This document shows, one piece after another, positions 5,328 through 17,324 of a DNA stretch of 32,000 bases. The DNA is taken from NCBI RefSeq assembly GCF_051207375.1, contig NZ_JBPJZD010000003.1, positions 525,612 through 557,611 on the forward strand, in the 5' to 3' direction. The translations under genes were made by a program, and so were the position numbers. Numbering within the stretch: position 1 is the stretch's first letter; every line of letters starts with the position of its first letter. This DNA comes from Haloarchaeobius sp. DYHT-AS-18. GTDB lineage: Archaea; Halobacteriota; Halobacteria; Halobacteriales; Natrialbaceae. The notes under the pieces were generated by a model. The model worked only from the letters and a program-made list of their open reading frames with translations, was not told the origin of the DNA and did no database searches.

Positions 5328-6160
5328 GAGACGAGGAGGAGGCCACCGACGGGCCGCCGGACCCGCAACTCCACCCCGAGAACAGTCCCGGCTTCGGCGA
5401 GGAACCGGTCGGGCTAGAGGATATCGAGGTCTCCCGCGAGGACGTGACCATCGGGGAGGCCGACCCGGCCGAACTCGCGGCCAGCGACACGGAACCCGTC
5501 GAGGACGCGGCCGAGCACGACCTGCTCGCCACCCTCGCGGGCGACGACCCCATCGAGCGCCGCCGAGCCGCGCTCGCGCTGGCCGAACGCGACCCGAGTG
5601 ACGCCGCAATCGAGGGGCTGGCGGCGGCCGCGGCCACCGACGACGAGCCCGAGGTCCGCCAGTTCGCGGTCGAGGCCCTCGGGAAACTCGGCGGTGACAT
5701 CGCCGCGCAGACGGCCCGCAAACTGCTGGAAGACCCCGAGCCGTGGGTGCGCGCGGAGGCACTGGTCTCGCTGGACCGGCTGGACCGTGAGAGCCACGAG
5801 GAGGCGATCGAAGGCGCACTGGACGACGAGCACCACGCAGTCCGCCGGAACGCCGCCATCTCACTGTTCAAACTCCGCGGCGAGGCCGCGAAGGACCTGC
5901 TGCTCGCCCAGACCGACGACGAGAGCGAGCGCGTTCGCGAGTGGGCAGCACACCTGCTCGCGGGCGTGGACGACGACGACGCCAGGGAGCGCCTCGCAGC
6001 ACTGGCGGATTCGGACGACAGCGACATCGTTTGCCGAACCGCGGCCAGGGCGTACGAGGCCGACCCCGGGGCGTTCCGCCGGCAGTTCAGCGGTGCGCTC
6101 GACGAGGTTGACACGACCCTCCCCGGCGAGGACCGCCTGAACCGCCGGCCCGACCTGTGA
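5324..6160 (+). CDS. HEAT-repeat (PBS-lyase-like) protein
   Basis: Repeated ~31-aa units of the form D(P/E)xxxVRxxAxxALgxl. I chose the GTG at 5324 because it overlaps the upstream stop. The track ORF from 4331 carries an Arg-rich out-of-context N-terminal extension. Confidence 0.75.
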   Translation: MRDEEEATDGPPDPQLHPENSPGFGEEPVGLEDIEVSREDVTIGEADPAELAASDTEPVEDAAEHDLLATLAGDDPIERRRAALALAERDPSDAAIEGLAAAAATDDEPEVRQFAVEALGKLGGDIAAQTARKLLEDPEPWVRAEALVSLDRLDRESHEEAIEGALDDEHHAVRRNAAISLFKLRGEAAKDLLLAQTDDESERVREWAAHLLAGVDDDDARERLAALADSDDSDIVCRTAARAYEADPGAFRRQFSGALDEVDTTLPGEDRLNRRPDL

Positions 6161-7467
6161 CCATGCACGAGACAGACAACCAGACGGACGAGGACGAGGA
6201 CGAGGGAGTGGACGAACAGCCAGACCTGCAAGCGCGCGTCGAAGCCGCACTCCGGCAGGTCCGCGACCCCGAGGCCGGCGTGAACGTGTTCGAGGCGGGC
6301 CTGGTCGAGAACCTCGTGGTCGACGGGGGGAGCGCGACCGTCGAGGCGGACCTCTCTGACTTCGACCCGGCCGGCGAGCAGCAGGTGGTCGGGGCGGTCC
6401 TGCAGGCGGTCCGATCCGTCCCCGGAATCGAGTCGGCCCACGTCGAACCGGTAGCTCCGACGCCGGATTCGGACGTGGACCGCGACAGCGGGACGGCCGC
6501 CTTCGACACCGTCATCGCGGTCGCCAGCGCGAAGGGCGGCGTCGGCAAGTCGACCGTCTCGACGATGCTGGCCTGCGCACTCGCCGGTGACCAGGCGGTC
6601 GGCCTGTTCGATGCGGACGTGCACGGGCCGAACGTCCCGACCCTGCTCGACATCGCGGGCCCCATCCACTCCGACGACGACGGGCACCCATTACCCGTCG
6701 AGGTGCCCGGGGAGGGCACCCTCGAAGCCATGAGCATCGGGTTGATGGAGCAGGGCGCACCACTCGGCTGGCGCGGCGCGATGGCACACGACGCCGTGAC
6801 GGAACTGTTCGAGGACACGGCCTGGTCGAACACGGACACGCTGGTGCTCGACCTCCCGCCGGGAACCGGCGACGTGGTGCTGACGACGCTGCAGGAGGTC
6901 CACGTCGACGGCGTGGTCGTCGTGACGACGCCGTTCCCGTCGGCGGTCGAGGACACCGCGAGGAGCGTCGAGCTGTTCCGGGACAACGACGTGCCGGTTC
7001 TCGGGACCGTCGTCAACATGGGCGGGTTCACCTGCCCGTCCTGTGGCGACACCCACGACCTCTTCCCGGACGGCTCGCCAATGGACGACCTCCAGACGAC
7101 GACGCTGGCGGAACTCCCGTTCGCCACCGAGTTGCAGGAGCCGCCGGTCCCGGGAGCCGTGCCCGAGGTGGTCGAGCCACTGGGTGACGCGGTCACCGAG
7201 GCCGCCCAGACCACCTGGGACGTCGGCGCGCCCGAGTCGGCGGTCGATATCCGCGGGCTCCCGCCACAGGACCGCAAGCAGGAAGTCCGCGAGGCGTTCG
7301 CTGACCTCGAGTCTGGCGACCCCTTCGTGGTCGTCAGCGACCGGGACCCCTCACCCATCCGGGCGTTCCTCGCCGAACTCGCCGGTGCGAAACCGTCGGC
7401 GTTCGACCCGTTCACCGTCAAGCGGGCCACCCCACACGACTGGCTCTTGCGGACGACCAGGCCATGA
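6157..7467 (+). CDS. apbC: Mrp/NBP35/ApbC-type Fe-S cluster carrier ATPase with N-terminal DUF59-like and C-terminal DUF2249-like domains
   Basis: Deviant Walker A (VASAKGGVGKST) and CPSCG Fe-S ligand motif. N-terminus LRQVRDPEAGVNVFEAGLV is DUF59-like. The C-terminal ~75 aa (VDIRGLPPQDRKQEVREAFADLESGDPFVVVSDRDPSPI) aligns with the standalone DUF2249 gene at 13909-14142. The start could instead be ATG 6163. Confidence 0.8.
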   Translation: MTMHETDNQTDEDEDEGVDEQPDLQARVEAALRQVRDPEAGVNVFEAGLVENLVVDGGSATVEADLSDFDPAGEQQVVGAVLQAVRSVPGIESAHVEPVAPTPDSDVDRDSGTAAFDTVIAVASAKGGVGKSTVSTMLACALAGDQAVGLFDADVHGPNVPTLLDIAGPIHSDDDGHPLPVEVPGEGTLEAMSIGLMEQGAPLGWRGAMAHDAVTELFEDTAWSNTDTLVLDLPPGTGDVVLTTLQEVHVDGVVVVTTPFPSAVEDTARSVELFRDNDVPVLGTVVNMGGFTCPSCGDTHDLFPDGSPMDDLQTTTLAELPFATELQEPPVPGAVPEVVEPLGDAVTEAAQTTWDVGAPESAVDIRGLPPQDRKQEVREAFADLESGDPFVVVSDRDPSPIRAFLAELAGAKPSAFDPFTVKRATPHDWLLRTTRP

Positions 7468-8156
7468 CGGGCGACCGGGAGACGTCGGTGCTGCCAGCTT
7501 CTTCCCTCACGGGCGTCGTCCTCGCGGGTGGGACCAGCACGCGGTTCGGACCGACTCCGAAAGCGACGGCGACGCTCGACGGACGGCCCCTGGTGGACCG
7601 GGTCGTCCGCCGGCTCTGGCGGGCGACCGGGCGACCGCCGGTGGTCGCGGCTCGCAGTGCAGCGAAACGCGAGCTGGTCACCGAGGCCGTCTCCGAACCG
7701 GTCCGGTTCACCCCCGATGCGGACTGGTGTGGCGGCCCGGTTGCCGGTCTCGCCGGGTCGCTGGATGCGGTCGAGACCGACCGCGTGTTCGTCTGTGGCT
7801 GTGATATGCCCCTGCTCTCGCCCGCGGCGGTTTCCTGGCAGGCGGCCCGGTTGCAGACGACCGAAGCGAACGCGGTGGTTCCCATGGACGTCGAGGGGCA
7901 GCCACAGCTCCTCCACGGGGTATTCGACCGTGACGCGCTCGCGTCGCTGTTCGAGACGCGCCCCGACGACGACCGGCTCCGGGTCGTGCTCGACCGGCTG
8001 ACCGTCGACCGGGTTCCACAGCACGAGGCACCCCAGAACATCCCCCTCGCCCGGTCGACGGTGAACGTCAACACCCGGGGCGACCTACGTTCGATACCGA
8101 CGATGGAAGCCGCGGTCGGTCACGGCCCCGACCCGGGCGAACACGTTCGGAACTAA
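7464..8156 (+). CDS. mobA: Molybdenum cofactor guanylyltransferase
   Basis: 230 aa. N-terminal GVVLAGGTSTRFG nucleotidyl-transferase motif and a GCDMP motif. ATGA overlap with the mrp gene. Confidence 0.8.
   Translation: MTGDRETSVLPASSLTGVVLAGGTSTRFGPTPKATATLDGRPLVDRVVRRLWRATGRPPVVAARSAAKRELVTEAVSEPVRFTPDADWCGGPVAGLAGSLDAVETDRVFVCGCDMPLLSPAAVSWQAARLQTTEANAVVPMDVEGQPQLLHGVFDRDALASLFETRPDDDRLRVVLDRLTVDRVPQHEAPQNIPLARSTVNVNTRGDLRSIPTMEAAVGHGPDPGEHVRN
8138..8149. promoter_or_regulatory. Palindromic operator CGAACACGTTCG (site 1)
   Basis: Lies inside the last codons of mobA. Centre is 44.5 nt upstream of ATG 8188. The 16-mer GGCGAACACGTTCGGA is identical to site 8. Confidence 0.7.
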
Positions 8157-8187: not shown

Positions 8188-9507
8188 ATGCGACCAGCCG
8201 TGACCGACCTCGACACGGGACAGGGCCCCCCGACGGCCATCCCGCTGCGCCACTTCCTCGTCGCCCTCGCCTTCCTCGCGGCCGGGATGGGCCTGTGGGT
8301 GATTCGACTGTACCCGACACCGCAGCGGGTAGCCCCGCCGCCCGCGGTGGTACACGCGGTCGTCGTGGGCTGGATCTGTCTCACCATCATGGGCGCGATG
8401 ACGCAGTTCGTCCCGGTGTGGTCGGGAGTGCGACTCCACTCGACCCGGCTGGCCAGACTCCAGTTGCCACTCGTCGCCGGCGGGGTCGTCGGAATCGTGG
8501 CCGGGTTCTGGTCGATGACGCTCTGGCTGGTGCCCGCGGGTGGGCTCCTCGCCGGTCTCGGCCTCTGGCTGTTCACCTACAACATCTGGCGGACGCTCCC
8601 GCCCCGTGGCGACCGCGACGTGACGGAGACCCACTTCGCGGTTGCACTCGCCTTCCTCTCGGCGGTCCCGGCGGTGGGACTCGCACTCGGTGCGGGATTC
8701 CTCGACCCGGCCGTACTCGACTCGCTCCCTCCCAGGGACAGGCTCGTGTCGGCACACGCCACCATGGCGGTGTTCGGGGTCATCCTGCCGACGGTGTTCG
8801 GGGCGCTCTACCAGCTCGCGGTGATGTTCGCCGGGACGAGCCTCGACGAGCGTGACCAACGATTCCAGCGCGTGGAGACGGCGGTGTACCCACTGGGTGT
8901 CGGCGTGCTCGCGGCAGGTCGGCTGCTGGATTCGTCGCCGGTCGCCCGCCTCGGCGGTGCCCTCGTCCTCGTGGGTGTGGCCGCCTTCACCGTCGTGTTA
9001 GGTCGAGTGCTCCGTCGCCGGACCGTCGAGACCACGCCGACGCTGGCCCGGTACGGGGTCGTCGCCGTCGCCCTCGCGTGCTGGGTGGTCCTGACGGTCC
9101 CAGCGTGGGTGGGCGGCGACCCGACGGCGGCGACGGCCCGGTACGGCGGCACTGGTGGGGTCGCCCTCCTGCTGTTCGGCGGGGTCGCCGTCGTGGTCGT
9201 CGGGAGCCTCTATCACGTGATTCCGTTCCTCGTCTGGCTGGAGCGCTACAGCGACCTGCTCGGCTACGAGCCGGTGCCGATGGTCGAGGACCTGTTCGAC
9301 CACCGGCTGGCGAGAGCCGACTTCTGGCTGGTGGTGGCCGGGACCGGACTGGTCGCCGGAGCCGACCTGCGCTGGGTCCCTGGAACGGTCTTCACCGGTG
9401 GGGTCGTGTTGCTGCTGACTGGCTTCCTGCTCGTGGCGGCCAACATGGGACTCGTCGTGCACCGGGATGCGGGCCAGCCCGACCGGGGCGCTGTTGACGC
9501 GGACTGA
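8188..9507 (+). CDS. 12-TM integral membrane protein with conserved His in several helices (tentatively NnrS-like)
   Basis: 439 aa with about 12 hydrophobic helices. Motifs: VHAVVVGWICLTIMGAMTQFVPVWSG, AHATMAVFGVILPTVFGALYQ, GSLYHVIPF. The operator sits at -44.5. Confidence 0.7.
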   Translation: MRPAVTDLDTGQGPPTAIPLRHFLVALAFLAAGMGLWVIRLYPTPQRVAPPPAVVHAVVVGWICLTIMGAMTQFVPVWSGVRLHSTRLARLQLPLVAGGVVGIVAGFWSMTLWLVPAGGLLAGLGLWLFTYNIWRTLPPRGDRDVTETHFAVALAFLSAVPAVGLALGAGFLDPAVLDSLPPRDRLVSAHATMAVFGVILPTVFGALYQLAVMFAGTSLDERDQRFQRVETAVYPLGVGVLAAGRLLDSSPVARLGGALVLVGVAAFTVVLGRVLRRRTVETTPTLARYGVVAVALACWVVLTVPAWVGGDPTAATARYGGTGGVALLLFGGVAVVVVGSLYHVIPFLVWLERYSDLLGYEPVPMVEDLFDHRLARADFWLVVAGTGLVAGADLRWVPGTVFTGGVVLLLTGFLLVAANMGLVVHRDAGQPDRGAVDAD

Positions 9508-9594: not shown

Positions 9595-9894
9595 ATGACA
9601 GACATCGCCGACCTGAACGAGTTCGAGTCGACCCCTCACGCGGAAGTGTTCGCTGCCCCCGGTCCTCGCGTGGTTCGGCTCCAGCTCGAAGCCGGAGACG
9701 AGATGCCCGAACACAGCCATCCGGGTGAGACCATCGTCCTGCACGTGCTCGCTGGTGAACTCGACCTCAGGCTCGACGGCGAACCGAATCATCTCCAGGG
9801 GGACGAACTGATCCGGTTCGACGGGGACCAGGACATCCAGCCGCGCGCCCTCTCGGACACGAAAGCGCTGCTGTTCTTCTGTACGACTGAGTGA
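9595..9894 (+). CDS. Cupin-domain protein
   Basis: 99 aa. HSHPGETIVLHVLAGELDLRLDGE is a typical cupin_2 metal-binding motif. A TATA-like GATATAAAT lies about 60 nt upstream. Confidence 0.75.
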   Translation: MTDIADLNEFESTPHAEVFAAPGPRVVRLQLEAGDEMPEHSHPGETIVLHVLAGELDLRLDGEPNHLQGDELIRFDGDQDIQPRALSDTKALLFFCTTE

Positions 9895-9984: not shown

Positions 9985-11172
9985 CTAGCGGTTCGCGCGC
10001 TCTCGAAAGAGACCCCCGAGGAGCCAGACGTGAGCCACGGCCCCGGCGAGTGCGCTGACACCGCCGAGGAGTTCGAAGACGGGGACGTCGAACGCGAGGC
10101 CGGTCACTCCCAGCACGAGCCCCACCAGCAGACAGGCGATCGCGCCGAGCGCCGTCCGGTCCCCAGCGCCCGGGAAGGTCCCGACCGCAGGCGGGTAGAA
10201 CTGGTAGCTCACGCCGACGATGGTCAGCCCGAGGAAGCCGACGAGATTCAGGCGGGCATGTGCGAGCCCGAGGCCGGGCTGGAGACCACCCAGCGCGAAC
10301 TGCAGGCCGAGGCCGACCCCGAGGCAGCCACACACTGCGCCCGCGAGCACGCCGTAGAACCCGACCCGACGGCGTTCGGACCGGTAGGAGAGCACCCCGA
10401 GCACGATGGCGAAGGCGACGACGGCCGAGGCTTCGAGGACGGCCCCGAGCCGGAACCACTGCCCGCTCGGGAGGTACGTGGCGATGAGCAACGGCCCACC
10501 TGCCGCGGCCGGAAAGACGAGCACAGGCGCGAACCGCGGCGGGGTGGCGACGAAGAAGCGCGGCAGCAATCGGAATCCCACGGCGAACACGAACAGTGCG
10601 CCGGTACCCGCCGCGAGCAGGTGGCTGGACCGGGCGAGGCTCCCATCGAACACCACCGGGAGACCGGTTTCGGCCGCGAGCACACCGTAAGACCCGAGCA
10701 GGAGATACACGAGAGCGACCGGGACGAACGCGTTCGCCACCCTGTCGAGTGCCTGCCGGTGCGTGTTCACGGCACCGGTCCCGGTCGCCGCACCGGAGAG
10801 GTCACCGCGGACCGTCCACAGCAGCGACCCGGCGAAGACGAGGACGCCGAGCGACCAGCAGAGCGCGCCGACTGTCCCGACCCACGCCGGGGAAGCCCGC
10901 AGTCCGTCGAGTGCAAGCAGGGCTGTCCCCCCGACCGAAAGCGGAAACTGGACGAATGGGGCGCGCGCCACGGCGAGTTCGCGGTCGAAGTACACCGGAA
11001 TCAGCGAGTAGCCCTTCCCGAACACGGTGTGCAGGACGAACCCGAACAGGACGAGGACGACCTCGACGCGTCTCGGGGTGCCGATAAGCGCGGCGAGTGC
11101 CCAGACGAGGAGGAAGAGCGCGCCGGTGAACACGAACCGGCGGGCCCACCTCGAGACCGTGGCGGTCGTCAT
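9985..11172 (-). CDS. 12-TM integral membrane protein related to the 8188-9507 product
   Basis: 395 aa starting MTTATVSRW (ATG at 11172). The upstream part of the 680-aa track ORF is Arg/Pro-rich and looks like an artefact. It shares AHA-x5-G-x4-T-x2-G-x2-YQ at identical spacing with the 8188 protein. Confidence 0.7.
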   Translation of the reverse strand: MTTATVSRWARRFVFTGALFLLVWALAALIGTPRRVEVVLVLFGFVLHTVFGKGYSLIPVYFDRELAVARAPFVQFPLSVGGTALLALDGLRASPAWVGTVGALCWSLGVLVFAGSLLWTVRGDLSGAATGTGAVNTHRQALDRVANAFVPVALVYLLLGSYGVLAAETGLPVVFDGSLARSSHLLAAGTGALFVFAVGFRLLPRFFVATPPRFAPVLVFPAAAGGPLLIATYLPSGQWFRLGAVLEASAVVAFAIVLGVLSYRSERRRVGFYGVLAGAVCGCLGVGLGLQFALGGLQPGLGLAHARLNLVGFLGLTIVGVSYQFYPPAVGTFPGAGDRTALGAIACLLVGLVLGVTGLAFDVPVFELLGGVSALAGAVAHVWLLGGLFRERANR

Positions 11173-11177
11173 CGCGC

Positions 11178-11759
11178 TCAGTACGGTGCCTGCGGGCCGG
11201 GCCCGGGCGGGACGTCGGAGCCGGTGGGTTCGAGGGCGTCGAGTTCGTCCGGGTGCGGAATCTGGCCGGTCTCGCGGAACTCGGTCTCCAGGACCGAGAG
11301 CACGTCGTTCGCGGTTGCACTCGCCTGGTGGGACGGAGCGATTCTGACCCGCACGAGGTCGTAGTCGTGTCGGTCGGAGAGCCCGTTCAGGGCCCGGAAC
11401 ACGGCCGTCACGAGGGTCTGCCCCTGCGGGCAGAACTCGGTCGTCGGGGTGAACTCGACGCGGAGGACGCCCTCCTCGTCCGACGACTCGGCGTACCGGA
11501 ATCCTGCATCGGGGTGTCGACTGTCCCGGTTGAGGCGCGCGAGGTTGTACCCGAAGGTCACGTCGTAGACGCCGCGTTCCTCGAAACACTCCCTGGCCAC
11601 CGAATGGACCCTGACGTGCGCATCGCCGGTCAGCACCTCGTGGCCGGCGAGGAACGGTCCCGGGTCGGGGAGGTGTTCGAGGACGAAGGCGTCCTGGGGG
11701 TCGAACGGCTCCTCCGTGCCATCGTCGTCGCTGCCAGAGAACGGTGATGGGAACTGCAT
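11178..11759 (-). CDS. Acidic hypothetical protein with a DUF59/MIP18-like T-x-T-x-x-x-C-P motif
   Basis: 193 aa from ATG 11759 (MQFPSPF). The track start at 11807 lies inside the palindromic operator. The motif VEFTPTTEFCPQGQTLVTAVFRAL resembles DUF59. Only 5 nt separate it from the downstream membrane gene. Confidence 0.6.
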   Translation of the reverse strand: MQFPSPFSGSDDDGTEEPFDPQDAFVLEHLPDPGPFLAGHEVLTGDAHVRVHSVARECFEERGVYDVTFGYNLARLNRDSRHPDAGFRYAESSDEEGVLRVEFTPTTEFCPQGQTLVTAVFRALNGLSDRHDYDLVRVRIAPSHQASATANDVLSVLETEFRETGQIPHPDELDALEPTGSDVPPGPGPQAPY

Positions 11760-11797
11760 CTCGTCCGTGCCTACGGACGCCTGCGTGGTATGGTTGC

Positions 11798-11815
11798 GCA
11801 CGAACATGTTCGTGC
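11798..11815. promoter_or_regulatory. Perfect 18-bp palindrome GCACGAACATGTTCGTGC (operator site 2)
   Basis: Lies between the rSAM stop (11856) and ATG 11759. Centre is 47.5 nt upstream of that ATG. Confidence 0.7.
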
Positions 11816-11855: not shown

Positions 11856-12977
11856 TCAATCGGCTGGGCCGCCGGTGCTCGCCTCGGGGTGGCGGTCCGG
11901 GAGCGGGCCGTCGTATCCCTTCGGCACGTACGGACAGAGCGGGTCGGCGGCGAGAGGGTCCCCGGTGACCGCGGCGGCACGGGACCGGCTCCCGCCACAG
12001 ACGCCGCGGAAGGGACAGGCACCGCACTTGCCGCCGAGTTCGTCGGGGTCGCGCAGTCGCTGGAAGAGGTCGGCGTTCCGGTAGACGTCGACGACATCGT
12101 CCCGTCGGACGTTCCCGGCTGGGTGTGGCAGGAACCCGGACGGGTACACCTCGCCGACGTGACTGACGAAGGCGAACCCGTCACCGGCCTTGATGCCAGC
12201 GCGACGCCCGATGGCGTCGGCCGCCGGCCGGTCGGTTCCGTCGTCCTCCCCGGCCGATTGCTGGATGGCGACGCGCCGGTAGTGGGGTGCCTCGGTCGTC
12301 TTCACCCCGAACTCCGCAGACTCGCTCACCTCGTGGAGCCAGCGCATCACCGATTCGGCCGTCTCCGGGGAGACCGGGTCCAGCAGGGCACCGCGCCCGA
12401 CCGGCACGAGGAAGAACACGGACCAGAGGACCGCACCGAGGTCGGCCACGAGTTCGCGGATCGCGGGGAGTTCGTCGACCGTCTGTGCACACACCGTCGT
12501 GTTGACCTGCAGTGGCAGCCCCACCTCGCGGGCGGCCCGCGCTGCCGCGACGGTGTCGTCGAAGCTCCCCTGCTCGCCCCGGAAGGCGTCGTGTGCCTCG
12601 GCGGAGCCGCCGTCGATGCTGAGGGCCATCCGACGAAGACCGGCGTCGGACAGGCGCTCGATTCGGTCGGGAGTGAGCGAGGACGTGCCACTGGGCGTGA
12701 GCGTCATCCTGAGCCCCTGCTCGGCCCCGAAAGTGACGAGCTCTGCGAGGTCGCCACGTGCCAGCGGGTCGCCGCCCGAAAGCACGACGAGCTGGCCGTC
12801 GCCGAACTCGCTGGCGTCTTCCAGGAGGCGCTTTCCTTCCTCGGTGGTCAGCTCGTCGGGGTGACGCTGTGGCTTCGCGTCGGCGCGACAGTGCTCGCAG
12901 GCGAGTTCGCACGCCTGCGTCACCTCCCAGACGAGCACGAACGGTCGTTCCTCGGTGTCGATGGTTGCCGGGTTCAT
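11856..12977 (-). CDS. Radical SAM enzyme with C-terminal SPASM/twitch-like Cys cluster
   Basis: 373 aa from ATG 12977. C23-x3-C27-x2-C30 (QACELACEHC) sits right at the N-terminus. C-terminal GKCGACPFRGVCGG...DPLCPY. Confidence 0.85.
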   Translation of the reverse strand: MNPATIDTEERPFVLVWEVTQACELACEHCRADAKPQRHPDELTTEEGKRLLEDASEFGDGQLVVLSGGDPLARGDLAELVTFGAEQGLRMTLTPSGTSSLTPDRIERLSDAGLRRMALSIDGGSAEAHDAFRGEQGSFDDTVAAARAAREVGLPLQVNTTVCAQTVDELPAIRELVADLGAVLWSVFFLVPVGRGALLDPVSPETAESVMRWLHEVSESAEFGVKTTEAPHYRRVAIQQSAGEDDGTDRPAADAIGRRAGIKAGDGFAFVSHVGEVYPSGFLPHPAGNVRRDDVVDVYRNADLFQRLRDPDELGGKCGACPFRGVCGGSRSRAAAVTGDPLAADPLCPYVPKGYDGPLPDRHPEASTGGPAD

Positions 12978-12979
12978 GG

Positions 12980-13285
12980 TCACTCGACGGAGACGCGGGT
13001 GACGTGCCCGCCACAGCCGCACTGTTCGACGTACTCGCAGCTGATGTCGTCGCCGAAACGGTCGGCGAGGTGCTCGAAGAGGTAGGTCTCGGGATGCCCG
13101 TGGTCGCCGTGAGTCACCAGGTTCACGTGGTTCCCGGCTGCCGTGTGCTCGACCGCCTCCACGGCCTGTGCGAGCACGAGGTCGCGGTCGTCGGCGTGGG
13201 CCGGCCGCTCCAGGTTCGCCGACCACGAGTTGTCGTGGACGGTGTCGGTGACCGGGTCGACTGCGTCGTGCGAGACTGGTGCCAT
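12980..13285 (-). CDS. His-rich 101-aa acidic protein ending ...CEYVEQCGCGGHVTRVSVE; putative rSAM substrate (CGCGG-motif protein)
   Basis: ATG at 13285. The stop is 2 nt from the rSAM start. 10 His and 3 Cys, all three Cys within the last 19 residues. The operator sits at -44.5. Confidence 0.7.
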   Translation of the reverse strand: MAPVSHDAVDPVTDTVHDNSWSANLERPAHADDRDLVLAQAVEAVEHTAAGNHVNLVTHGDHGHPETYLFEHLADRFGDDISCEYVEQCGCGGHVTRVSVE

Positions 13286-13323
13286 ACGCGAGAGTCGTTC
13301 CGGGACCCACGAAACCCTCATCG

Positions 13324-13335
13324 CGAACATGTTCG
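13324..13335. promoter_or_regulatory. Operator CGAACATGTTCG (site 3)
   Basis: Centre is 44.5 nt upstream of the minus-strand ATG at 13285. Confidence 0.7.
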
Positions 13336-13348
13336 TGGACACGGGGTG

Positions 13349-13360
13349 CGAACATCTTCG
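13349..13360. promoter_or_regulatory. Operator CGAACATCTTCG (site 4)
   Basis: Centre is 44.5 nt upstream of the plus-strand ATG at 13399. One central mismatch to the perfect palindrome. Confidence 0.65.
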
Positions 13361-13398
13361 GGGCAAACGACCTATGCCAGCCACCGGAATGGACGAAT

Positions 13399-13677
13399 AT
13401 GGCGGCGAAGACAGATCCACCGACGCTGTCCGCGTTCCTGGAACGGAGCAACGCGCCGACCGACGGCAGCCTGGACCGGCTCGACGTGGCGGACCTACCG
13501 CCACCACAGCCGCTCACGAAGACGCTCGAGCACCTCGCAGACCTCGACGGCGGCGTGCTGGTCCAGTTCAACGACCGAGCGCCCAAACACCTCTATCCGA
13601 AGCTGAACGAGCGGGGCTTCCGATACGAGACAGAGGAGATCGCCGGGCGCATCGTGACCCTCATCTGGCGGGGGTGA
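13399..13677 (+). CDS. DUF2249-like small protein (subtype 2)
   Basis: 92 aa from ATG 13399 (MAAKTDPP). LDVADLPPPQPLTKTLEHLADLDGGVLVQFNDRAPKHLYPKLNERGF. Confidence 0.65.
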   Translation: MAAKTDPPTLSAFLERSNAPTDGSLDRLDVADLPPPQPLTKTLEHLADLDGGVLVQFNDRAPKHLYPKLNERGFRYETEEIAGRIVTLIWRG

Positions 13678-13908: not shown

Positions 13909-14142
13909 TCACTGCTTGGGCAGCGTCGCGATGAACTCGGTGTCGCTCACCTGGTCGAGTTCGTAGCCCTCGGCGTCGAAGTCGTCGCGCTCGGCCTGTA
14001 GCTGGTAGTACAGCGGCTGGGGGTCGTGGTCGTTGACCAGCGTCAACGCCTCTCCCGAGTCGAGCGCGTCGAACGCCTCGAATATCTTCTCGTGGCGGTT
14101 CCGCGGTGCGTACTCACGTGCGTCGATGGTCGTCTCGGTCAC
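13909..14142 (-). CDS. DUF2249-like small protein (subtype 1)
   Basis: 77 aa from GTG 14142, the only in-frame start before the domain. IDAREYAPRNRHEKIFEAFDALDSGEALTLVNDHDPQPLYYQL. The rest of the 317-aa track ORF is antisense to the regulator gene. Confidence 0.65.
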   Translation of the reverse strand: MTETTIDAREYAPRNRHEKIFEAFDALDSGEALTLVNDHDPQPLYYQLQAERDDFDAEGYELDQVSDTEFIATLPKQ

Positions 14143-14180: not shown

Positions 14181-14192
14181 CGAACGTGTTCG
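14181..14192. promoter_or_regulatory. Operator CGAACGTGTTCG (site 5)
   Basis: Centre is 44.5 nt upstream of the minus-strand GTG at 14142. Confidence 0.65.
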
Positions 14193-14223
14193 TCGCCCGC
14201 GAGAGACAACCCGACCGTTCGGC

Positions 14224-14235
14224 CGAACATGTTCG
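14224..14235. promoter_or_regulatory. Operator CGAACATGTTCG (site 6)
   Basis: Centre is 51.5 nt upstream of ATG 14281. Confidence 0.65.
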
Positions 14236-14258
14236 TCGCCACTGTTTCCTCCCTGGGC

Positions 14259-14270
14259 CGAATACGTTCG
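14259..14270. promoter_or_regulatory. Operator CGAATACGTTCG (site 7)
   Basis: Centre is 16.5 nt upstream of ATG 14281, so it overlaps the expected core promoter or initiation region. Confidence 0.55.
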
Positions 14271-14280
14271 GGTAGGAACG

Positions 14281-14934
14281 ATGGCCCGAGCGAACCTGAC
14301 TATCACCGTGCCCGAAGACGTCTGGGTCGGCCGCGTCTCCAGAGCGTACCCGAATGCCCGGATCCGCATCCTCGCCGCGCTCCCCGACGGCGACCACGGG
14401 GTCGCCCTGGCGGAGGTGACGAGCGACCAGCTCCCCGACCTCGTCGGTGACATCCGGACCGCGGAGATGATCGTCGACCTGGACCTGCTCCAGCACCATG
14501 GCGAGACCGCCCTGATCCAGTTCGAGACCACGACGCCGCTGTTGCTCCAGCCCATCAAGAGTTCGGGTATCCCACTGGAGATGCCGTTCGACATCAAGGA
14601 CGGGCAGGCGAAGTGGGAGATAAACGCCCCGCAGGAGCACCTCTCCCGGCTCGGCGAGAAGCTCGAGGAGTTCGGTATCCCCTTCGACGTCGAAGAGCTT
14701 CGCCATCAGGTCGAACCCGACCCGGCACTCACCCCACGACAGCGGACCCTCATCGTCGAGGCAGTGGAGCGTGGCTACTACGATACGCCCCGGGAGTGCA
14801 CGCTGACCGACCTGGCCGAGGCGCTCGACCTCGCGAAGTCGACCTGTAGCGAGACGCTGCACCGCGCGGAGGAGACGATAATCAAGGAGTTCGTGGCGGA
14901 GCTTCCCGACTCGCAGGTGTCGCGAGAGGACTGA
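14281..14934 (+). CDS. HTH-10 (Bat/halobacterial type) DNA-binding transcription regulator
   Basis: 217 aa. The C-terminus LTPRQRTLIVEAVERGYYDTPRECTLTDLAEALDLAKSTCSETLHRAEETIIKEF is the characteristic HTH_10 domain. Confidence 0.8.
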   Translation: MARANLTITVPEDVWVGRVSRAYPNARIRILAALPDGDHGVALAEVTSDQLPDLVGDIRTAEMIVDLDLLQHHGETALIQFETTTPLLLQPIKSSGIPLEMPFDIKDGQAKWEINAPQEHLSRLGEKLEEFGIPFDVEELRHQVEPDPALTPRQRTLIVEAVERGYYDTPRECTLTDLAEALDLAKSTCSETLHRAEETIIKEFVAELPDSQVSRED

Positions 14935-14961: not shown

Positions 14962-14973
14962 CGAACACGTTCG
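14962..14973. promoter_or_regulatory. Operator CGAACACGTTCG (site 8), upstream of qNor
   Basis: Centre is 74.5 nt upstream of ATG 15042, which is 30 nt further than the -44.5 class. Confidence 0.65.
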
Positions 14974-15041: not shown

Positions 15042-17324
15042 ATGGAGATACGACGACAGACGCTCGCGAAGATACTGGTACTGGTCTTCGTGTTCAACCT
15101 GGCCGTCATGGGCTTTGGTGCATGGTACTCCACCGAGAACGCGCCACCCATTCCGAAGGAGGTGGTCGGCCCGGACGGCCAGCAGGTGGTGACGGACGAA
15201 CAGGTACGCACCGGCAAGACGGTGTTCCAGTCGGACGGCATGATGAACCACGGGTCCATCCTCGGGAACGGGGCATACTTCGGCGTGGACTACACCGCCG
15301 ATGCACTGGACCTGAAGGTGCAACACATGCGGGAGTACTACGCCCGCGAGCGCCATGGCGAGTCCTACTCGGCTCTCTCGTCGCCCGAGCAGGCGGCCAT
15401 CGACGAGGTCGTCCAGCGCGATCTCGACTCGGGAACCGTCGACGAGACCATCGAGTACTCCGCCGCGGAGATGTACGCGCACGAGCAGGTGCGTGAGGTC
15501 TACGTCGAACGCTACCACGAAGGCAGTCCCGAGCGAGGTGTGCCCGAGGGGATGGTCGCCTCCGAGGAGGAGGCCCGACAGTTCGCCGACTTCGCGATGT
15601 GGACGGCGTGGATGAGCCACACCGACCGACCGGGCAGCGAGCACTCGTACACGAACGAGTGGCCGTTCCAGCCCGCAGCCGGGAACACTCCCGGTGCCTC
15701 CGCGATGACCTGGAGCGTCATCGCGATGGTGCTGCTGGTCGCGGGCGCTGGTATCGGCGTCTGGCTCTACAAATCGGTCGACCTGCCCGAACCGTCGGCC
15801 GCCGGTATCGAGGTTCCCGACCCCGACGAGAGCGACCTGCTCCCGAGCCAGGCCGCGGCGGTGAAGTTCGTGCCGGTCGCGGCGCTGCTGTTCGCCGGAC
15901 AGGTCCTGCTCGGTGGGTTACTGGCCCACTACTACGTCGAGCGCTCGGCGTTCTTCGGCATCGAGTCGGTGTTCGGCATCCCGATTATCGACCTGCTGCC
16001 CTTCGCACTGGCGAAGACGTGGCACATCGACCTCGCCATCCTGTGGATCGCGACGCTGTGGCTCGGCGCGGGGCTGTTCCTCGCGCCGCTGCTGACCGGC
16101 TACGAGCCCGAGAACCAGTCGCGCTACGTCTACGGGCTCCTCGGCGCGCTCGTGGTCGTGTCCGTCGGCGGCCTGACGGGCATCTACCTCGGCGCGAACG
16201 AGTTCTTCCAGGGTGACCTCTGGTGGCTCCTCGGGAACGAGGGGCTGGAGTACCTCGAGGTCGGGAAGGTCTGGCAGTTCGGGCTGCTGCTCGGCTTCGG
16301 CGCGTGGGCGGTCCTCGTCGCCCGCGGGTTCGGGCCACTGCTCGACCGTGAGCCCCGGTTCGGCCTCGCGCACATGATACTCTACGCCGGCGGGTCCATC
16401 GGCCTGCTGTTCGTCGCCGGCTTCATGTTCACCCCCCAGACCAACATCGCGGTGACGGAGTTCTGGCGCTGGTGGGTCGTCCACATGTGGGTCGAGGGTG
16501 CGTTCGAGTTCTTCATCGTCGCCATCGTCGGCCTCACCCTCGTCTCGATGAACCTGCTGGAGAAGCGGTCGGCCGAGAAGGCGGTGATGGTCGAGGCGCT
16601 GCTCGTGATGGGGACCGGCGTCATCGGTGTCTCCCACCACTACTGGTGGGTCGGGATGCCGGACGTGTGGGTGCCCATCGGGAGCGTCTTCTCGACGCTG
16701 GAGCTCATCCCGCTGGTGTTCATCCTCTACGAGGCGCTCAACGAGTACGGGGCGCTCTCGGCCAGCGGCGAGGACTTCCCCTACCGGCTCCCGTTCATGT
16801 TCATCATCGCCAGCGGGGTGTGGAACTTCGTCGGGGCCGGCGTCCTCGGCTTCTTCATCAACCTCCCGCTGGTGAACTACTACGAGCACGGGACCTACCT
16901 GACGGTCGGGCACGCTCACGCCGCGATGTTCGGCGCGTTCGGCTTCCTCGCGCTCGGGATGGCGACCTACATGCTCCGCCTCACCACGACCGACTGGAAG
17001 CCCAGACGTCTCCGGGCCGCGTTCTGGCTGTGGAACGTCGGCCTCGCGCTGATGGTGTTCGTCTCGGTGCTCCCCGTCGGCTTCCTGCAGCTCGAAGCCG
17101 CGTTCACCGCGAACTACGACGCGGCCCGGAGCCTGGCGTTCTACAACGGCGAGCTGGTCCAGTTGCTGTTCTGGGCTCGCCTGCCCGGTGACACGATGCT
17201 CATCGCCGGGACGCTGCTGTTCGCCTACGACGTGGTCGAGAAGCTGTTCGCCCAGCGTGAGGTGACGGCAGCCGACGAGTCCGACGGCGTCGTCGCGACC
17301 CGGATGGCAACCGACGACGACTGA
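15042..17324 (+). CDS. norZ: Quinol-dependent nitric oxide reductase (qNor; haem-copper oxidase subunit I family with N-terminal extension)
   Basis: 760 aa. One N-terminal TM plus a ~200-aa soluble domain, then 12 or more TM helices with HCO-type His motifs (HYWWVG, GHAHAAMFG, WVVHMWVEG). Confidence 0.9.
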   Translation: MEIRRQTLAKILVLVFVFNLAVMGFGAWYSTENAPPIPKEVVGPDGQQVVTDEQVRTGKTVFQSDGMMNHGSILGNGAYFGVDYTADALDLKVQHMREYYARERHGESYSALSSPEQAAIDEVVQRDLDSGTVDETIEYSAAEMYAHEQVREVYVERYHEGSPERGVPEGMVASEEEARQFADFAMWTAWMSHTDRPGSEHSYTNEWPFQPAAGNTPGASAMTWSVIAMVLLVAGAGIGVWLYKSVDLPEPSAAGIEVPDPDESDLLPSQAAAVKFVPVAALLFAGQVLLGGLLAHYYVERSAFFGIESVFGIPIIDLLPFALAKTWHIDLAILWIATLWLGAGLFLAPLLTGYEPENQSRYVYGLLGALVVVSVGGLTGIYLGANEFFQGDLWWLLGNEGLEYLEVGKVWQFGLLLGFGAWAVLVARGFGPLLDREPRFGLAHMILYAGGSIGLLFVAGFMFTPQTNIAVTEFWRWWVVHMWVEGAFEFFIVAIVGLTLVSMNLLEKRSAEKAVMVEALLVMGTGVIGVSHHYWWVGMPDVWVPIGSVFSTLELIPLVFILYEALNEYGALSASGEDFPYRLPFMFIIASGVWNFVGAGVLGFFINLPLVNYYEHGTYLTVGHAHAAMFGAFGFLALGMATYMLRLTTTDWKPRRLRAAFWLWNVGLALMVFVSVLPVGFLQLEAAFTANYDAARSLAFYNGELVQLLFWARLPGDTMLIAGTLLFAYDVVEKLFAQREVTAADESDGVVATRMATDDD

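What the first reader, a model, noticed from the sequence alone, without database searches (positions are those of the whole stretch)
11856..13285. His-rich CGCGG-terminated protein coupled to a radical-SAM/SPASM enzyme under denitrification-type control
A 101-aa acidic protein has 10 His, including THGDHGHPE. Its only three Cys are clustered at the C-terminus (C83, C89, C91: ...DDISCEYVEQCGCGGHVTRVSVE). Its stop lies 2 nt before the start of a 373-aa radical SAM enzyme.

That enzyme's CxxxCxxC begins at residue 23, so there is no room for an N-terminal RRE domain. It ends in a Cys-rich SPASM/twitch region. The arrangement is that of a substrate-maturase pair, and I recall an annotation class named 'CGCGG family rSAM-modified RiPP protein'.

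The substrate is large and looks folded and metal-binding rather than leader-plus-core. Possible chemistry includes thioether or Cys-derived cross-links, or a Cys-to-formylglycine-type modification that creates a metal or cofactor site. Co-regulation with qNor, through the same operator at the same -44.5 position, suggests a role in anaerobic/NO physiology that has not been described to my knowledge.
Basis: partly seen in the sequence, partly recalled or inferred. Interest (0 to 1): 0.85.

Follow-up and report, generated by a model that had tools for sequence, protein, structure and literature searches.

The report
Anaerobic heme synthase with CGCGG partner
A haloarchaeal two-gene operon, switched on together with the denitrification genes, encodes the oxygen-independent heme synthase AhbD and a small folded protein with a Cys-Gly-Cys hairpin whose role is unknown; the database label "RiPP precursor plus maturase" is probably wrong.

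Summary
A 101-aa acidic protein (12980-13285, minus strand; TIGR03995/PF26005 "CGCGG family") ends 2 nt before a 373-aa radical SAM gene (11856-12977; TIGR04053). Two CGAA-N4-TTCG operators lie upstream.

The substrate-maturase reading is weak:
- The rSAM is 75% identical to Haloferax volcanii HVO_2144. Deleting that gene blocks anaerobic growth, and protoheme rescues it (published AhbD).
- It carries the AhbD cysteine signature CX3CX2C plus CX2CX5CX20C.
- The CGCGG gene directly precedes this rSAM in only 18 of 71 evaluable haloarchaeal loci. In 80 of 80 Bacillota loci no such rSAM lies within 10 kb.
- The small protein is predicted as a compact beta-alpha-beta-alpha-beta-beta domain (pLDDT 90.5). 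Only C-x-C-G-G is invariant family-wide. The His cluster is specific to haloarchaea, and C83 is not conserved.

What is conserved is anaerobic control and a recurring neighbourhood:
- The NarO-type operator lies upstream in 52 of 80 haloarchaeal loci.
- An Fnr-type box lies upstream in 33 of 80 Bacillota loci.
- Recurring neighbours are DUF2249, cupin (also fused), DUF59/DUF7998, an HCO-like membrane protein, qNor, NirK and Nar.

Best reading: AhbD plus an uncharacterised accessory factor of anaerobic N-oxide respiration. Both families are already annotated, so interest is moderate.

The parts
12980..13285 (-). CGCGG-family small protein (101 aa; TIGR03995 / PF26005). Predicted beta-alpha-beta-alpha-beta-beta domain, with C89-G-C91-G-G93 forming the beta3-beta4 hairpin turn.
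11856..12977 (-). Radical SAM enzyme (373 aa; TIGR04053). Orthologue of H. volcanii AhbD (HVO_2144), the oxygen-independent heme b synthase. Its start is 2 nt after the CGCGG stop.
13324..13335 (.). NarO-type operator CGAACATGTTCG. Centred -44.5 from the CGCGG ATG and -69.5 from the divergent DUF2249 ATG.
13349..13360 (.). Second operator CGAACATCTTCG. Centred -69.5 from the CGCGG ATG and -44.5 from the DUF2249 ATG (13399).
11178..11759 (-). DUF7998-family protein (193 aa from ATG 11759). It is the next gene after the rSAM and is often directly downstream of CGCGG genes elsewhere. It carries a DUF59-like VYDxxxGxN / TPTTxFCP core.
11801..11812 (.). Operator CGAACATGTTCG between the rSAM stop and the DUF7998 start, centred -47.5 from ATG 11759.
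13399..13677 (+). DUF2249-like small protein, divergent from the CGCGG gene and sharing its two operators.
13909..14142 (-). DUF2249 protein (PF10006, E 3.5e-24). Operator centred -44.5 from GTG 14142.
14281..14934 (+). HTH_10 (bacterio-opsin-activator-like) regulator, the candidate operator-binding protein. Three operators lie upstream, at -16.5, -51.5 and -94.5.
15042..17324 (+). Quinol-type nitric oxide reductase qNor (760 aa). Its operator 14962-14973 is centred -74.5 from the ATG.
8188..9507 (+). 439-aa polytopic membrane protein, a distant relative of heme-copper oxidase subunit I. Operator 8138-8149 is centred at -44.5. It recurs beside CGCGG genes in haloarchaea, and weakly similar proteins of about 410 aa recur in Paenibacillaceae.
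9595..9894 (+). Small cupin_2 protein. Cupins are frequent neighbours of CGCGG genes and are fused to the CGCGG domain in some bacteria.
9985..11145 (-). 386-aa membrane protein, a weak paralogue of the 439-aa protein and a recurrent neighbour.

Best explanation
The locus is a two-gene operon of the haloarchaeal anaerobic/denitrification (NarO-type, CGAA-N4-TTCG) regulon.

**Gene 2** is AhbD, the oxygen-independent radical SAM heme b synthase. It decarboxylates Fe-coproporphyrin III to protoheme when the aerobic ChdC/PitA route cannot work. This supplies heme b to Nar, qNor and other anaerobic respiratory enzymes. This assignment rests on orthology to a genetically characterised enzyme and on a motif test.

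**Gene 1** is not a RiPP precursor. It is a compact cytoplasmic alpha/beta protein. Its only universally conserved chemistry is a solvent-exposed Cys-x-Cys-Gly-Gly hairpin, flanked in haloarchaea by conserved His.

It belongs to a gene set that recurs in both Archaea and Bacteria around NO-generating respiration: CGCGG, DUF2249, cupin, DUF59/DUF7998, an HCO-like membrane protein of about 420 aa, and often qNor, NirK or Nar. This set is placed under whatever anaerobic regulator the host uses.

Inferred mechanism, not shown: the CxC dithiol, probably in a dimer and with His94/His59/His64 in haloarchaea, binds a metal, an Fe-S centre or an iron-nitrosyl centre, or cycles as a disulfide. It would then act in the assembly, repair or protection of iron centres (heme, non-heme Fe, Fe-S) of anaerobic enzymes. 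AhbD, which itself depends on [4Fe-4S] clusters, would be one client. Adjacency to ahbD in some haloarchaea would then reflect shared regulation and shared physiology, not an enzyme-substrate relationship.
For: **rSAM is AhbD**
- It is 75% identical over 359 aa to H. volcanii P0167.
- P0167 lies between nirK and norB, exactly as HVO_2144 does.
- Deletion of HVO_2144 abolishes only anaerobic growth, and protoheme restores it. The gene has the CGAA-N4-TTCG promoter motif (PMC5746218).
- P0167 itself scores TIGR04053 at 501 bits and TIGR04545 at 341 bits, the same pattern as the window protein.
- The window protein has CX3CX2C plus CX2CX5CX20C and lacks the full SPASM motif. Fix et al. describe this for all AhbDs and for non-methanogen AhbDs respectively (PMC10452713).
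- 119 of 120 haloarchaeal homologues keep both motifs.

**Small protein is a folded domain**
- AF2 gives pLDDT 90.5 and pTM 0.81.
- Identity across haloarchaeal genera is 66-80%, unlike a leader-plus-core peptide.

**Decoupling from the rSAM**
- The rSAM is adjacent in 18 of 71 evaluable haloarchaeal loci. It lies elsewhere within 10 kb in 6 and is absent from the flank in 40.
- It is absent within 10 kb in 80 of 80 Bacillota loci and in the Paenibacillaceae loci L162 and L167-L169.

**Anaerobic control in two domains**
- The exact operator lies within 200 nt upstream in 52 of 80 haloarchaeal loci, against 14% of neighbouring genes.
- GTGA-N6-TCAC lies upstream in 33 of 80 Bacillota loci, against 2.8% of other genes.
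- RNA-seq shows induction in Hfx. mediterranei.

**Recurrent module**
- CGCGG-cupin fusions exist, one directly downstream of qNor.
- Paralogues lie beside a RIC-type ScdA/hemerythrin gene.
Against: - Where the two genes are adjacent, the order CGCGG then rSAM is constant and the genes are nearly or actually overlapping. This is the classic precursor-maturase layout.
- NCBI curators named the family from its association with TIGR04053. I could not compute genome-wide co-occurrence, so a strict phylogenetic link between the two families is not excluded.
- rSAM/SPASM enzymes that modify Cys in folded proteins of about 100 aa without an RRE do exist (own knowledge: QhpD/QhpC, anSME).
- The AhbD assignment rests on one genetic study in one species. 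Rescue of denitrifying growth there was only partial, and no enzyme assay exists for a TIGR04053 member.
- Nothing here shows metal binding, redox activity or any client of the small protein. No significant structural relative was found.
- Many census loci come from related metagenomes and are not phylogenetically independent.
Confidence: 0.5

Rival explanations
1. Dedicated AhbD helper. The CGCGG protein works specifically with the AhbD-type rSAM. It could be the missing external electron acceptor for the oxidative decarboxylation, a donor or repair factor for its [4Fe-4S] clusters, or a carrier that hands coproheme in or heme b out to membrane hemoproteins such as qNor.
For: - The genes are translationally coupled in the window and in 18 of 71 evaluable haloarchaeal loci.
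- AhbD needs an unidentified external electron acceptor (PMC10452713).
[quoted passage not shown] This is the same kind of host as the bacterial CGCGG genes.
- Position 94, directly after CGCGG, is almost always His or Tyr, both possible heme ligands.
- The gene lies next to qNor in Haloferax and in Schinkia-type loci.
Against: - M. barkeri and D. vulgaris AhbD are active in vitro without such a protein (as summarised in PMC10452713).
- No rSAM lies within 10 kb in 80 of 80 Bacillota loci or in the Paenibacillaceae loci.
- The most constant partners are DUF2249, DUF59-like proteins, cupin and HCO-like membrane proteins, not ahbD.
Confidence: 0.2
2. True protein substrate of the rSAM. The TIGR04053 enzyme installs a thioether or another Cys-derived modification in the CGCGG hairpin, either instead of or in addition to heme synthesis.
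For: - The family is named 'CGCGG family putative rSAM-modified RiPP protein'.
- The gene order is precursor-first, with a 2-nt gap.
- The invariant Cys sit in a Gly-rich exposed turn.
- Precedent exists for SPASM enzymes acting on folded proteins without an RRE (own knowledge: QhpD, anSME).
Against: - The orthologue's deletion phenotype is rescued by protoheme.
- The nearest characterised family is AhbD, with a full-length match at E 7e-100, and the AhbD Cys signature is present.
- Synteny is partial in haloarchaea and absent in the sampled bacteria.
- The whole protein is conserved, not a leader/core pattern.
- rSAM proteins adjacent to a CGCGG gene and those not adjacent are equally similar to the window enzyme: 69-76% against 67-75% identity.
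Confidence: 0.12
3. Signal-sensing co-factor. The CxC hairpin senses NO, oxygen or redox state, for example through a labile Fe-S or nitrosylatable dithiol. It then modulates the local anaerobic regulator: an HTH_10/NarO-like protein in haloarchaea, a Crp/Fnr-family protein in bacteria.
For: - An HTH_10 regulator is the commonest neighbour in haloarchaea (25 loci in the clustering; 29 by tblastn).
- Crp/Fnr-family regulators lie nearby in L162 and L163 and are detected by tblastn in L045, L058, L063 and L078.
- The window's HTH_10 protein has no obvious sensory Cys cluster.
- The neighbouring DUF2249 proteins have been proposed as nitrate sensors in Thermus (cited in PMC11218638).
Against: - Many CGCGG genes have no regulator nearby.
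- Strong induction (log2FC 4.3) is more typical of an effector than of a sensor.
- There is no evidence of any interaction.
Confidence: 0.08

Closest known systems
AhbD / heme b synthase (EC 1.3.98.6): M. barkeri Mbar_A1458, D. vulgaris AhbD, H. volcanii HVO_2144
   Same: - The window rSAM is 75% identical to the H. volcanii enzyme.
- It gives a full-length match to the AhbD model TIGR04545 at E 7e-100.
- It has CX3CX2C plus C-terminal CX2CX5CX20C.
- It has an anaerobic promoter motif like HVO_2144.
   Different: - It scores below the curated TIGR04545 cut-off (335 against 500), and NCBI files it under the unnamed family TIGR04053. So does the H. volcanii AhbD itself.
- It lacks the AuxI cysteines of methanogen and SRB enzymes.
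- In this window it is co-transcribed behind a small protein, which methanogen and SRB AhbDs are not known to need.
rSAM/SPASM enzymes that modify folded protein substrates (QhpD on QhpC; anSME on sulfatases); own knowledge
   Same: - The enzyme is a SPASM/twitch-type rSAM without an RRE.
- The candidate target is a protein of about 100 aa with the critical Cys.
- The small gene comes first.
   Different: - No modification has been shown.
- The enzyme's orthologue has a tetrapyrrole substrate.
- Synteny is facultative, whereas (own knowledge) qhpC/qhpD sit together within one operon.
Classical RiPP precursor plus maturase (sactipeptides, ranthipeptides, mycofactocin, PQQ)
   Same: - The neighbouring enzyme belongs to the rSAM/SPASM family.
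- The conserved Cys/Gly motif is C-terminal.
   Different: - There is no leader/core split and no RRE.
- The protein is confidently folded and conserved along its whole length.
- The family is cytoplasmic and housekeeping-like and sits in respiratory gene islands.
Bacilliredoxins BrxA/BrxB (YphP/YqiW, DUF1094) with a redox-active Cys-Gly-Cys site; own knowledge
   Same: An invariant C-G-C triplet in a small cytoplasmic protein of Bacillota, compatible with a strained redox-active disulfide or metal chelation.
   Different: - The fold is different: thioredoxin-like against beta-alpha-beta-alpha-beta-beta.
- There is no sequence similarity, and this comparison was not tested here beyond the motif.
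DUF2249 / TusA-SirA-like small proteins of denitrification clusters (e.g. Thermus DrpA/DrpB)
   Same: - Similar size, the same predicted beta-alpha-beta-alpha-beta-beta topology, the same gene islands and the same operator.
- The closest same-sized match in the Foldseek list (rank 14 overall) is a SirA-like protein, 3hz7, with TM 0.60 normalised to the target.
   Different: - There is no detectable homology: hhalign probability 0.5% and Foldseek E 0.065.
- The conserved Cys lie in the beta3-beta4 hairpin, not at the helix-1 N-terminus as in TusA (own knowledge).

Membership tests
TIGR03995 / PF26005 CGCGG family | HMM score above the curated cut-off (70 bits) | tested here: met
   141.7 bits, E 7e-42, covering model positions 1-83 of 83. 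Homologues carry PF26005.
TIGR03995 / PF26005 CGCGG family | Near-C-terminal C-G-C-G-G motif | tested here: met
   C89-G-C-G-G93. C, C, G and G are the only invariant columns in a 46-sequence cross-domain alignment.
TIGR03995 / PF26005 CGCGG family | Association with a TIGR04053 rSAM gene, the basis of the family name | tested here: met
   Met in the window, with a 2-nt gap. Across the family it holds in only 18 of 71 evaluable haloarchaeal loci and 0 of 80 Bacillota loci within 10 kb.
TIGR04053 radical SAM/SPASM family | HMM score above cut-off (395 bits) and a CX3CX2C cluster motif | tested here: met
   495.7 bits. C23/C27/C30. PF04055 at E 4e-23.
AhbD heme b synthase | Score above the curated TIGR04545 equivalog cut-off (500 bits) | tested here: not met
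   334.8 bits. The genetically validated H. volcanii AhbD also fails at 341.5 bits, so the cut-off excludes the haloarchaeal clade rather than the function.
AhbD heme b synthase | Cysteine signature CX3CX2C plus C-terminal CX2CX5CX20-38C (Fix et al. 2023) | tested here: met
   C318-x2-C321-x5-C327-x20-C348. Motif definition taken from PMC10452713.
AhbD heme b synthase | Orthology to an enzyme with a heme-rescuable anaerobic phenotype | tested here: met
   75% identity to P0167. P0167 occupies the HVO_2144 position between nirK and norB. Phenotype reported in PMC5746218.
AhbD heme b synthase | Conversion of Fe-coproporphyrin III to protoheme | not testable with these tools
   Needs an enzyme assay.
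RiPP precursor / maturase pair | Leader-plus-core precursor and a recognition (RRE) domain in the enzyme | tested here: not met
   The precursor candidate is a folded 101-aa domain with pLDDT 90.5. The rSAM motif starts at residue 23, so there is no N-terminal domain.
RiPP precursor / maturase pair | Obligate co-localisation of precursor and maturase | tested here: not met
RiPP precursor / maturase pair | Demonstrated post-translational modification | not testable with these tools
   Needs mass spectrometry.
Haloarchaeal NarO-type denitrification regulon | CGAA-N4-TTCG palindrome in the promoter | tested here: met
   Two copies at -44.5 and -69.5. Conserved in 52 of 80 haloarchaeal loci. The motif is described in PMC5746218 and PMC11218638.
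Haloarchaeal NarO-type denitrification regulon | Induction under anoxic/denitrifying conditions | not testable with these tools
   Shown only for the Hfx. mediterranei orthologues (log2FC 4.30 and 2.78), not for this organism.

The most novel reading that the evidence does not exclude
The AhbD-type rSAM is bifunctional, or was recruited, and uses the same radical chemistry to cross-link or otherwise convert Cys89/Cys91 of a folded protein. This would create a protein-derived redox or metal cofactor that serves NO reductase-type respiration in both Archaea and Bacteria.

A less radical novel reading is that CGCGG, a DUF59-like protein, DUF2249, cupin and an HCO-like membrane protein form an unrecognised cross-domain system. 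That system would assemble or repair iron centres under NO stress.
Probability: 0.1. Interest if true: 0.85.

Novelty: new member of a known kind. Interest (0 to 1): 0.45.

Why it matters
Three practical points follow.

1. A widely propagated annotation, 'rSAM-modified RiPP protein' next to an unnamed 'TIGR04053 family' enzyme, probably misleads. The enzyme is best read as the anaerobic heme synthase of haloarchaea. Its relatives may be the oxygen-independent coproheme decarboxylase that reviews still list as an open point for facultative Gram-positive bacteria.

2. The CGCGG protein is a small, highly conserved and strongly induced protein. It is placed under the anaerobic regulator in two domains of life and sits next to qNor, NirK and Nar, yet it has never been discussed. 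It is a cheap, well-defined knockout and biochemistry target for understanding how denitrifiers build or protect iron enzymes in the presence of NO.

3. The case shows how shared-regulon clustering can mimic an enzyme-substrate gene pair.

Tried and rejected
- **Homology of the CGCGG family to DUF2249.** The motifs look alike (hVNLVTHxxHGHPxxYL against LxLVNDHxPxPLYY). hhalign gave probability 0.5% and E 0.11, so I rejected it.
- **Structural relatives.** Foldseek against the PDB gave nothing at E <= 0.001. The best hits were fragments of Rossmann methyltransferases, plus IF3-C, Alba and SirA-like topologies.
- **Profile search of PDB sequences.** Only noise was returned.
- **Solved AhbD structure by sequence.** None found. 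The nearest structures are BlsE, PqqE and SkfB.
- **Literature searches.** CGCGG plus 'radical SAM', TIGR03995/TIGR04053 and HVO_2148 returned nothing relevant. I tried one PMC id each for Haft & Basu 2011 (id recalled from memory, so possibly wrong) and Hattori 2016; neither id is held.
- **NCBIfam on ten neighbouring or unknown proteins.** No hits.
- **AF2 of the DUF7998 protein.** The single-sequence model is unusable, with pLDDT 39.
- **Subfamily split.** I tested whether CGCGG proteins next to the rSAM form a separate subfamily. They do not. Arrangement follows lineage, with 66-68% identity between classes against 70-72% within.
- **The Desulfitobacterium locus.** The context is uninformative.
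Full report
**1. What is there**

The window has 67% G+C and comes from a haloarchaeon. The small protein is 99% identical, and the rSAM 100% identical, to Haloarchaeobius proteins.

On the minus strand, 13285..12980 encodes the quoted 101-aa protein:
- It has 10 His, Cys at 83, 89 and 91, and pI 4.7.
- Its TGA is followed by CC and then the ATG of a 373-aa radical SAM protein at 12977..11856.

NCBIfam places both genes above the curated cut-offs:
- The small protein scores 141.7 bits for TIGR03995, 'CGCGG family putative rSAM-modified RiPP protein' (cut-off 70).
- The enzyme scores 495.7 bits for TIGR04053 (cut-off 395).

**2. Surroundings**

The window is a denitrification island. In order it holds:
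- NarG (partial), NarH, an EB_dh-type subunit and NarJ;
- an Mrp/ApbC protein carrying DUF59 and DUF2249 domains, and a MobA-like protein;
- a 439-aa membrane protein, a cupin and a 386-aa membrane protein;
- a protein of about 200 aa of unknown function;
- the rSAM and the CGCGG gene;
- two DUF2249 genes, an HTH_10 regulator and qNor.

The palindrome CGAA-N4-TTCG occurs 10 times against 0.49 expected. Its centres relative to start codons are:

| Gene | Operator centre(s) |
|---|---|
| CGCGG | -44.5, -69.5 |
| Divergent DUF2249 (ATG 13399) | -44.5, -69.5, mirror-symmetric with CGCGG |
| 439-aa membrane protein | -44.5 |
| Second DUF2249 (GTG 14142) | -44.5 |
| DUF7998 (ATG 11759) | -47.5 |
| HTH_10 | -16.5, -51.5, -94.5 |
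| qNor | -74.5 |

In H. volcanii the shared operator is also about 47.5 nt from the CGCGG start and about 72.5 nt from the norB start (derived).

The motif is the published haloarchaeal denitrification operator (PMC5746218; PMC11218638).

**3. The enzyme is AhbD**

The closest characterised family in NCBIfam is heme b synthase, TIGR04545. The match is full length at E 7e-100, ahead of NirJ, AhbC and all peptide maturases.

Haloferax volcanii has one close homologue, P0167, at 75% identity. Its locus reads nirK, HVO_2142-family protein, DUF2249, rSAM, halocyanin, a 165-aa protein, norB. This is the published position of HVO_2144 between nirK (HVO_2141) and norB (HVO_2147).

Kosugi et al. deleted HVO_2144:
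- Aerobic growth was normal, while denitrifying and DMSO-respiring growth were lost.
- Protoheme restored growth, fully for DMSO respiration and partly for denitrification.
- They noted the CGAA-N4-TTCG motif in its promoter.
- Pfeiffer et al. list it as ahbD, 42% identical to the M. barkeri enzyme.

P0167 itself scores 501 bits for TIGR04053 and 341 bits for TIGR04545. Failing the TIGR04545 cut-off is thus a property of the haloarchaeal AhbD clade, not evidence against the function.

Fix et al. define the AhbD cysteine pattern as CX3CX2C plus C-terminal CX2CX5CX20-38C. They report that non-methanogenic archaeal AhbDs lack the four AuxI cysteines. The window protein has C23/27/30 and C318/321/327/348, with spacing x2, x5 and x20, plus one other Cys. 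Of 120 haloarchaeal homologues, 119 share both motifs.

I put the AhbD assignment at about 0.85.

**4. The small protein**

AlphaFold2, run with a 46-sequence alignment spanning Archaea and Bacteria, gives a confident compact domain with pLDDT 90.5 and pTM 0.81. The topology is beta1 (21-25), alpha1 (34-46), beta2 (53-58), alpha2 (70-80), beta3 (81-88), beta4 (94-100). C89-G-C-G-G93 forms the beta3-beta4 turn. It is a folded protein, not leader plus core.

Conservation family-wide:
- Only C, C, G and G are invariant.
- Nearly invariant are the VNLVT strand, G-x-P, a Leu, and V-x-R after the motif.

The His cluster:
- THGDHGHPE becomes, for example, TPAGLGNPE in Bacillota.
- Within 119 haloarchaeal sequences, H17, H30, H53, H59, H64 and H94 are at least 98% conserved.
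- A Cys/His metal site specific to haloarchaea therefore remains possible.

C83 is Trp or Tyr in most homologues and conserved in only 4%.

No significant structural or sequence relative was found in the PDB. A suspected link to DUF2249 failed.

The family is small. It has 101 representatives at 50% identity among 1.84 billion proteins and occurs in 357 of 185,579 species genomes.

**5. Is the pair syntenic?**

*H. volcanii and Hfx. mediterranei.* The CGCGG gene is not next to ahbD. It is divergent from norB and shares one operator with it. In H. volcanii the two genes are 4.6 kb apart; the mediterranei supplement shows the same arrangement.

*Haloarchaeal loci.* I examined 80 metagenomic loci plus H. 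volcanii. Of the 71 with at least 1.2 kb downstream:

| Arrangement | Loci |
|---|---|
| rSAM immediately downstream, same strand | 18 |
| DUF7998 homologue immediately downstream instead | 7 |
| rSAM elsewhere within 10 kb | 6 |
| No rSAM in the flank | 40 (17 of these have at least 8 kb on both sides) |

Arrangement follows lineage and there is no deep subfamily split.

*Bacteria.* In the 80 best bacterial loci (Neobacillus, Cytobacillus, Schinkia azotoformans, Anaerobacillus, Desulfitobacterium and others) no TIGR04053-like gene lies within 10 kb. The Paenibacillaceae loci also lack one.

**6. What is conserved instead**

*(a) Anaerobic control.*
- The exact operator lies within 200 nt upstream of 52 of 80 haloarchaeal CGCGG genes. 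This includes 'orphan' loci with no denitrification gene nearby. About 4.5 would be expected from local density, and 14% of neighbouring genes have it.
- In Bacillota, the Crp/Fnr box core GTGA-N6-TCAC lies upstream of 33 of 80 CGCGG genes, mostly 50-60 nt from the ATG. This compares with 0.67 expected and 2.8% of other genes.
- In Hfx. mediterranei the gene is induced 20-fold under denitrifying conditions: log2FC 4.30, against 5.73 for nor and 2.78 for the rSAM. The paper's main text does not discuss it.

*(b) A recurrent gene set.*
- Haloarchaeal neighbours, as loci among the 81: HTH_10 regulators 25-29, DUF7998 15-22, cupin up to 19, 439-aa membrane protein 8-17, DUF2249 16 or more, NirK-like 9-13 (ranges span the clustering and the tblastn census). 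An SRPBCC protein lies in 24 loci.
- In Schinkia-type loci the order is narGH, CGCGG, small ORF, membrane ORF, DUF2249, qNor.
- narG lies within 10 kb in 13 Bacillota loci, NirK in 7, and NosL or NosY in 7-8.
- A Paenibacillaceae contig carries CGCGG, a Crp-family regulator, YwiC, cupin, DUF59, two membrane proteins of about 420 aa, DUF2249/TusA and NirK.
- Thermobacillus carries CGCGG, DUF59, a 410-aa membrane protein and DUF2249.
- The bacterial membrane proteins are weakly similar to the window's 439-aa protein (E 3e-7). A Haloplanus orthologue of that protein hits Pfam COX1 at E 8.6e-8, just under threshold.
- DUF7998 aligns with DUF59 over both hallmark motifs, at hhalign E 4.8e-4 and probability 32%. 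This is suggestive only.
- Two independent protein clusters are CGCGG-cupin fusions, one directly downstream of a qNor gene.
- A haloarchaeal plasmid has two paralogues, one a CTCGG variant, beside a ScdA_N-hemerythrin (RIC-type) gene.

**7. Interpretation**

*Shown:*
- The operon is real.
- It carries the denitrification operator.
- Its enzyme is orthologous to the genetically defined AhbD.
- The small protein is predicted with high confidence to be a folded domain with an invariant CxCGG hairpin.
- Its association with ahbD is facultative.
- Its association with anaerobic regulators and with a DUF2249 / cupin / DUF59-like / HCO-like / N-oxide-reductase neighbourhood spans two domains.

*Inferred:* the small protein is an accessory factor that uses a dithiol, plus His in haloarchaea, to bind a metal, Fe-S or iron-nitrosyl centre, or to act as a redox pair. 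It would serve the building or protection of iron enzymes during anaerobic, NO-producing respiration. AhbD would be a neighbour by shared need, and perhaps a client.

*Rivals, in order:*
1. A dedicated AhbD helper, acting as electron acceptor, cluster donor, or coproheme/heme hand-off protein.
2. A genuine protein substrate of the rSAM.
3. A sensor partner of the local regulator.

I could not test genome-wide co-occurrence of the two families, any modification or any metal binding. These gaps keep the rivals alive.

**8. Novelty**

Both genes belong to named families, and near-identical proteins are already in NCBI. The operator, the regulon and the AhbD role are published. The instance is therefore a new member of known kinds.

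Two points appear not to have been stated. First, the CGCGG family is decoupled from the rSAM in most genomes sampled. Second, it is instead tied to anaerobic N-oxide respiration in both haloarchaea and Bacillota, which makes the 'RiPP' label doubtful.

Interest is moderate. This is a tractable and probably mis-annotated unknown in a well-studied pathway, not a demonstrated new mechanism.

Noticed in passing
window 13286-13398: The 113-bp divergent intergenic region is mirror-symmetric. Its two palindromes (13324-13335 and 13349-13360) are centred at -44.5 and -69.5 from both the CGCGG ATG (13285) and the DUF2249 ATG (13399). The centres are 25 bp apart.
   Followed up: partly
window 11178-11807: The mechanical ORF start at ATG 11807 lies inside an operator. 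Homologues begin at the equivalent of ATG 11759 (MQFPSPF...), which puts the operator at -47.5. The protein is DUF7998 (PF25979 in H. volcanii and Haloplanus). It has a DUF59-like VYDxxxGxN...TPTTxFCPQ core (hhalign E 4.8e-4) and a conserved C-terminal ...APF/APY tail after an acidic linker.
   Followed up: partly
window 8188-9507 and 9985-11145: Two weakly paralogous polytopic membrane proteins (439 and 386 aa) have no Pfam hit. A Haloplanus orthologue of the first hits COX1 at E 8.6e-8, just below threshold. Bacterial proteins of about 410-430 aa next to CGCGG genes share the HxxLxGWxxxxxMGAxxQ motif (blastp E 3e-7). This may be an unrecognised family related to heme-copper oxidases.
   Followed up: partly
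L002-L081 (Bacillota loci), about 50-60 nt upstream of the CGCGG start: A Crp/Fnr-type box core GTGA-N6-TCAC lies upstream of 33 of 80 bacterial CGCGG genes, against 2.8% of other genes in the same loci. This implies Fnr-type anaerobic control in bacteria, parallel to the NarO-type operator in haloarchaea.
   Followed up: yes
L005-L079, for example L039 9109-9420: An unannotated ORF of about 92 aa (MEKQ...YFP) starts at or overlaps the stop of the CGCGG gene in 32-34 of 80 Bacillota loci. It has no significant Pfam or NCBIfam hit. In another 12 loci a coiled-coil protein of about 100 aa follows instead.
   Followed up: partly
L163 8001-8663; P0312, P0341: Natural fusions of the CGCGG domain to a cupin_2 domain (220-225 aa), one directly downstream of a qNor gene. 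Separate small cupins are common neighbours in haloarchaea, including window 9595-9894. The Hfx. mediterranei cupin is induced at log2FC 8.1.
   Followed up: partly
L164 8001-8318 and 9799-10113: A haloarchaeal plasmid carries two PF26005 paralogues, at least one (P0288) with C-T-C-G-G instead of C-G-C-G-G. They lie among ScdA_N-hemerythrin (RIC-type), TusA, DsrE, HMA, cupin and DUF2249 genes.
   Followed up: no
window 14181-14270: Three operators lie between the divergent DUF2249 gene and the HTH_10 regulator gene, at -16.5, -51.5 and -94.5 from the regulator's ATG. The -16.5 site suggests autoregulation, possibly repression.
   Followed up: no
window 10725-10736 and 14691-14702: Two further exact CGAA-N4-TTCG matches lie inside coding regions, one in the 386-aa membrane protein gene and one in the HTH_10 gene. 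Their significance is unknown.
   Followed up: no
window 6157-7467: An Mrp/ApbC-type P-loop Fe-S carrier has an N-terminal DUF59 domain and a C-terminal DUF2249 domain fused in one protein, followed by a MobA-like gene. The Hfx. mediterranei counterpart (E6P09_17415) is induced under denitrification.
   Followed up: no
L165 5529-5945 and 24 metagenome loci: An SRPBCC (Polyketide_cyc2) protein of about 140-180 aa lies directly upstream of the CGCGG gene, mostly on the same strand (19 of 24), in many haloarchaea. It is absent from this window.
   Followed up: no
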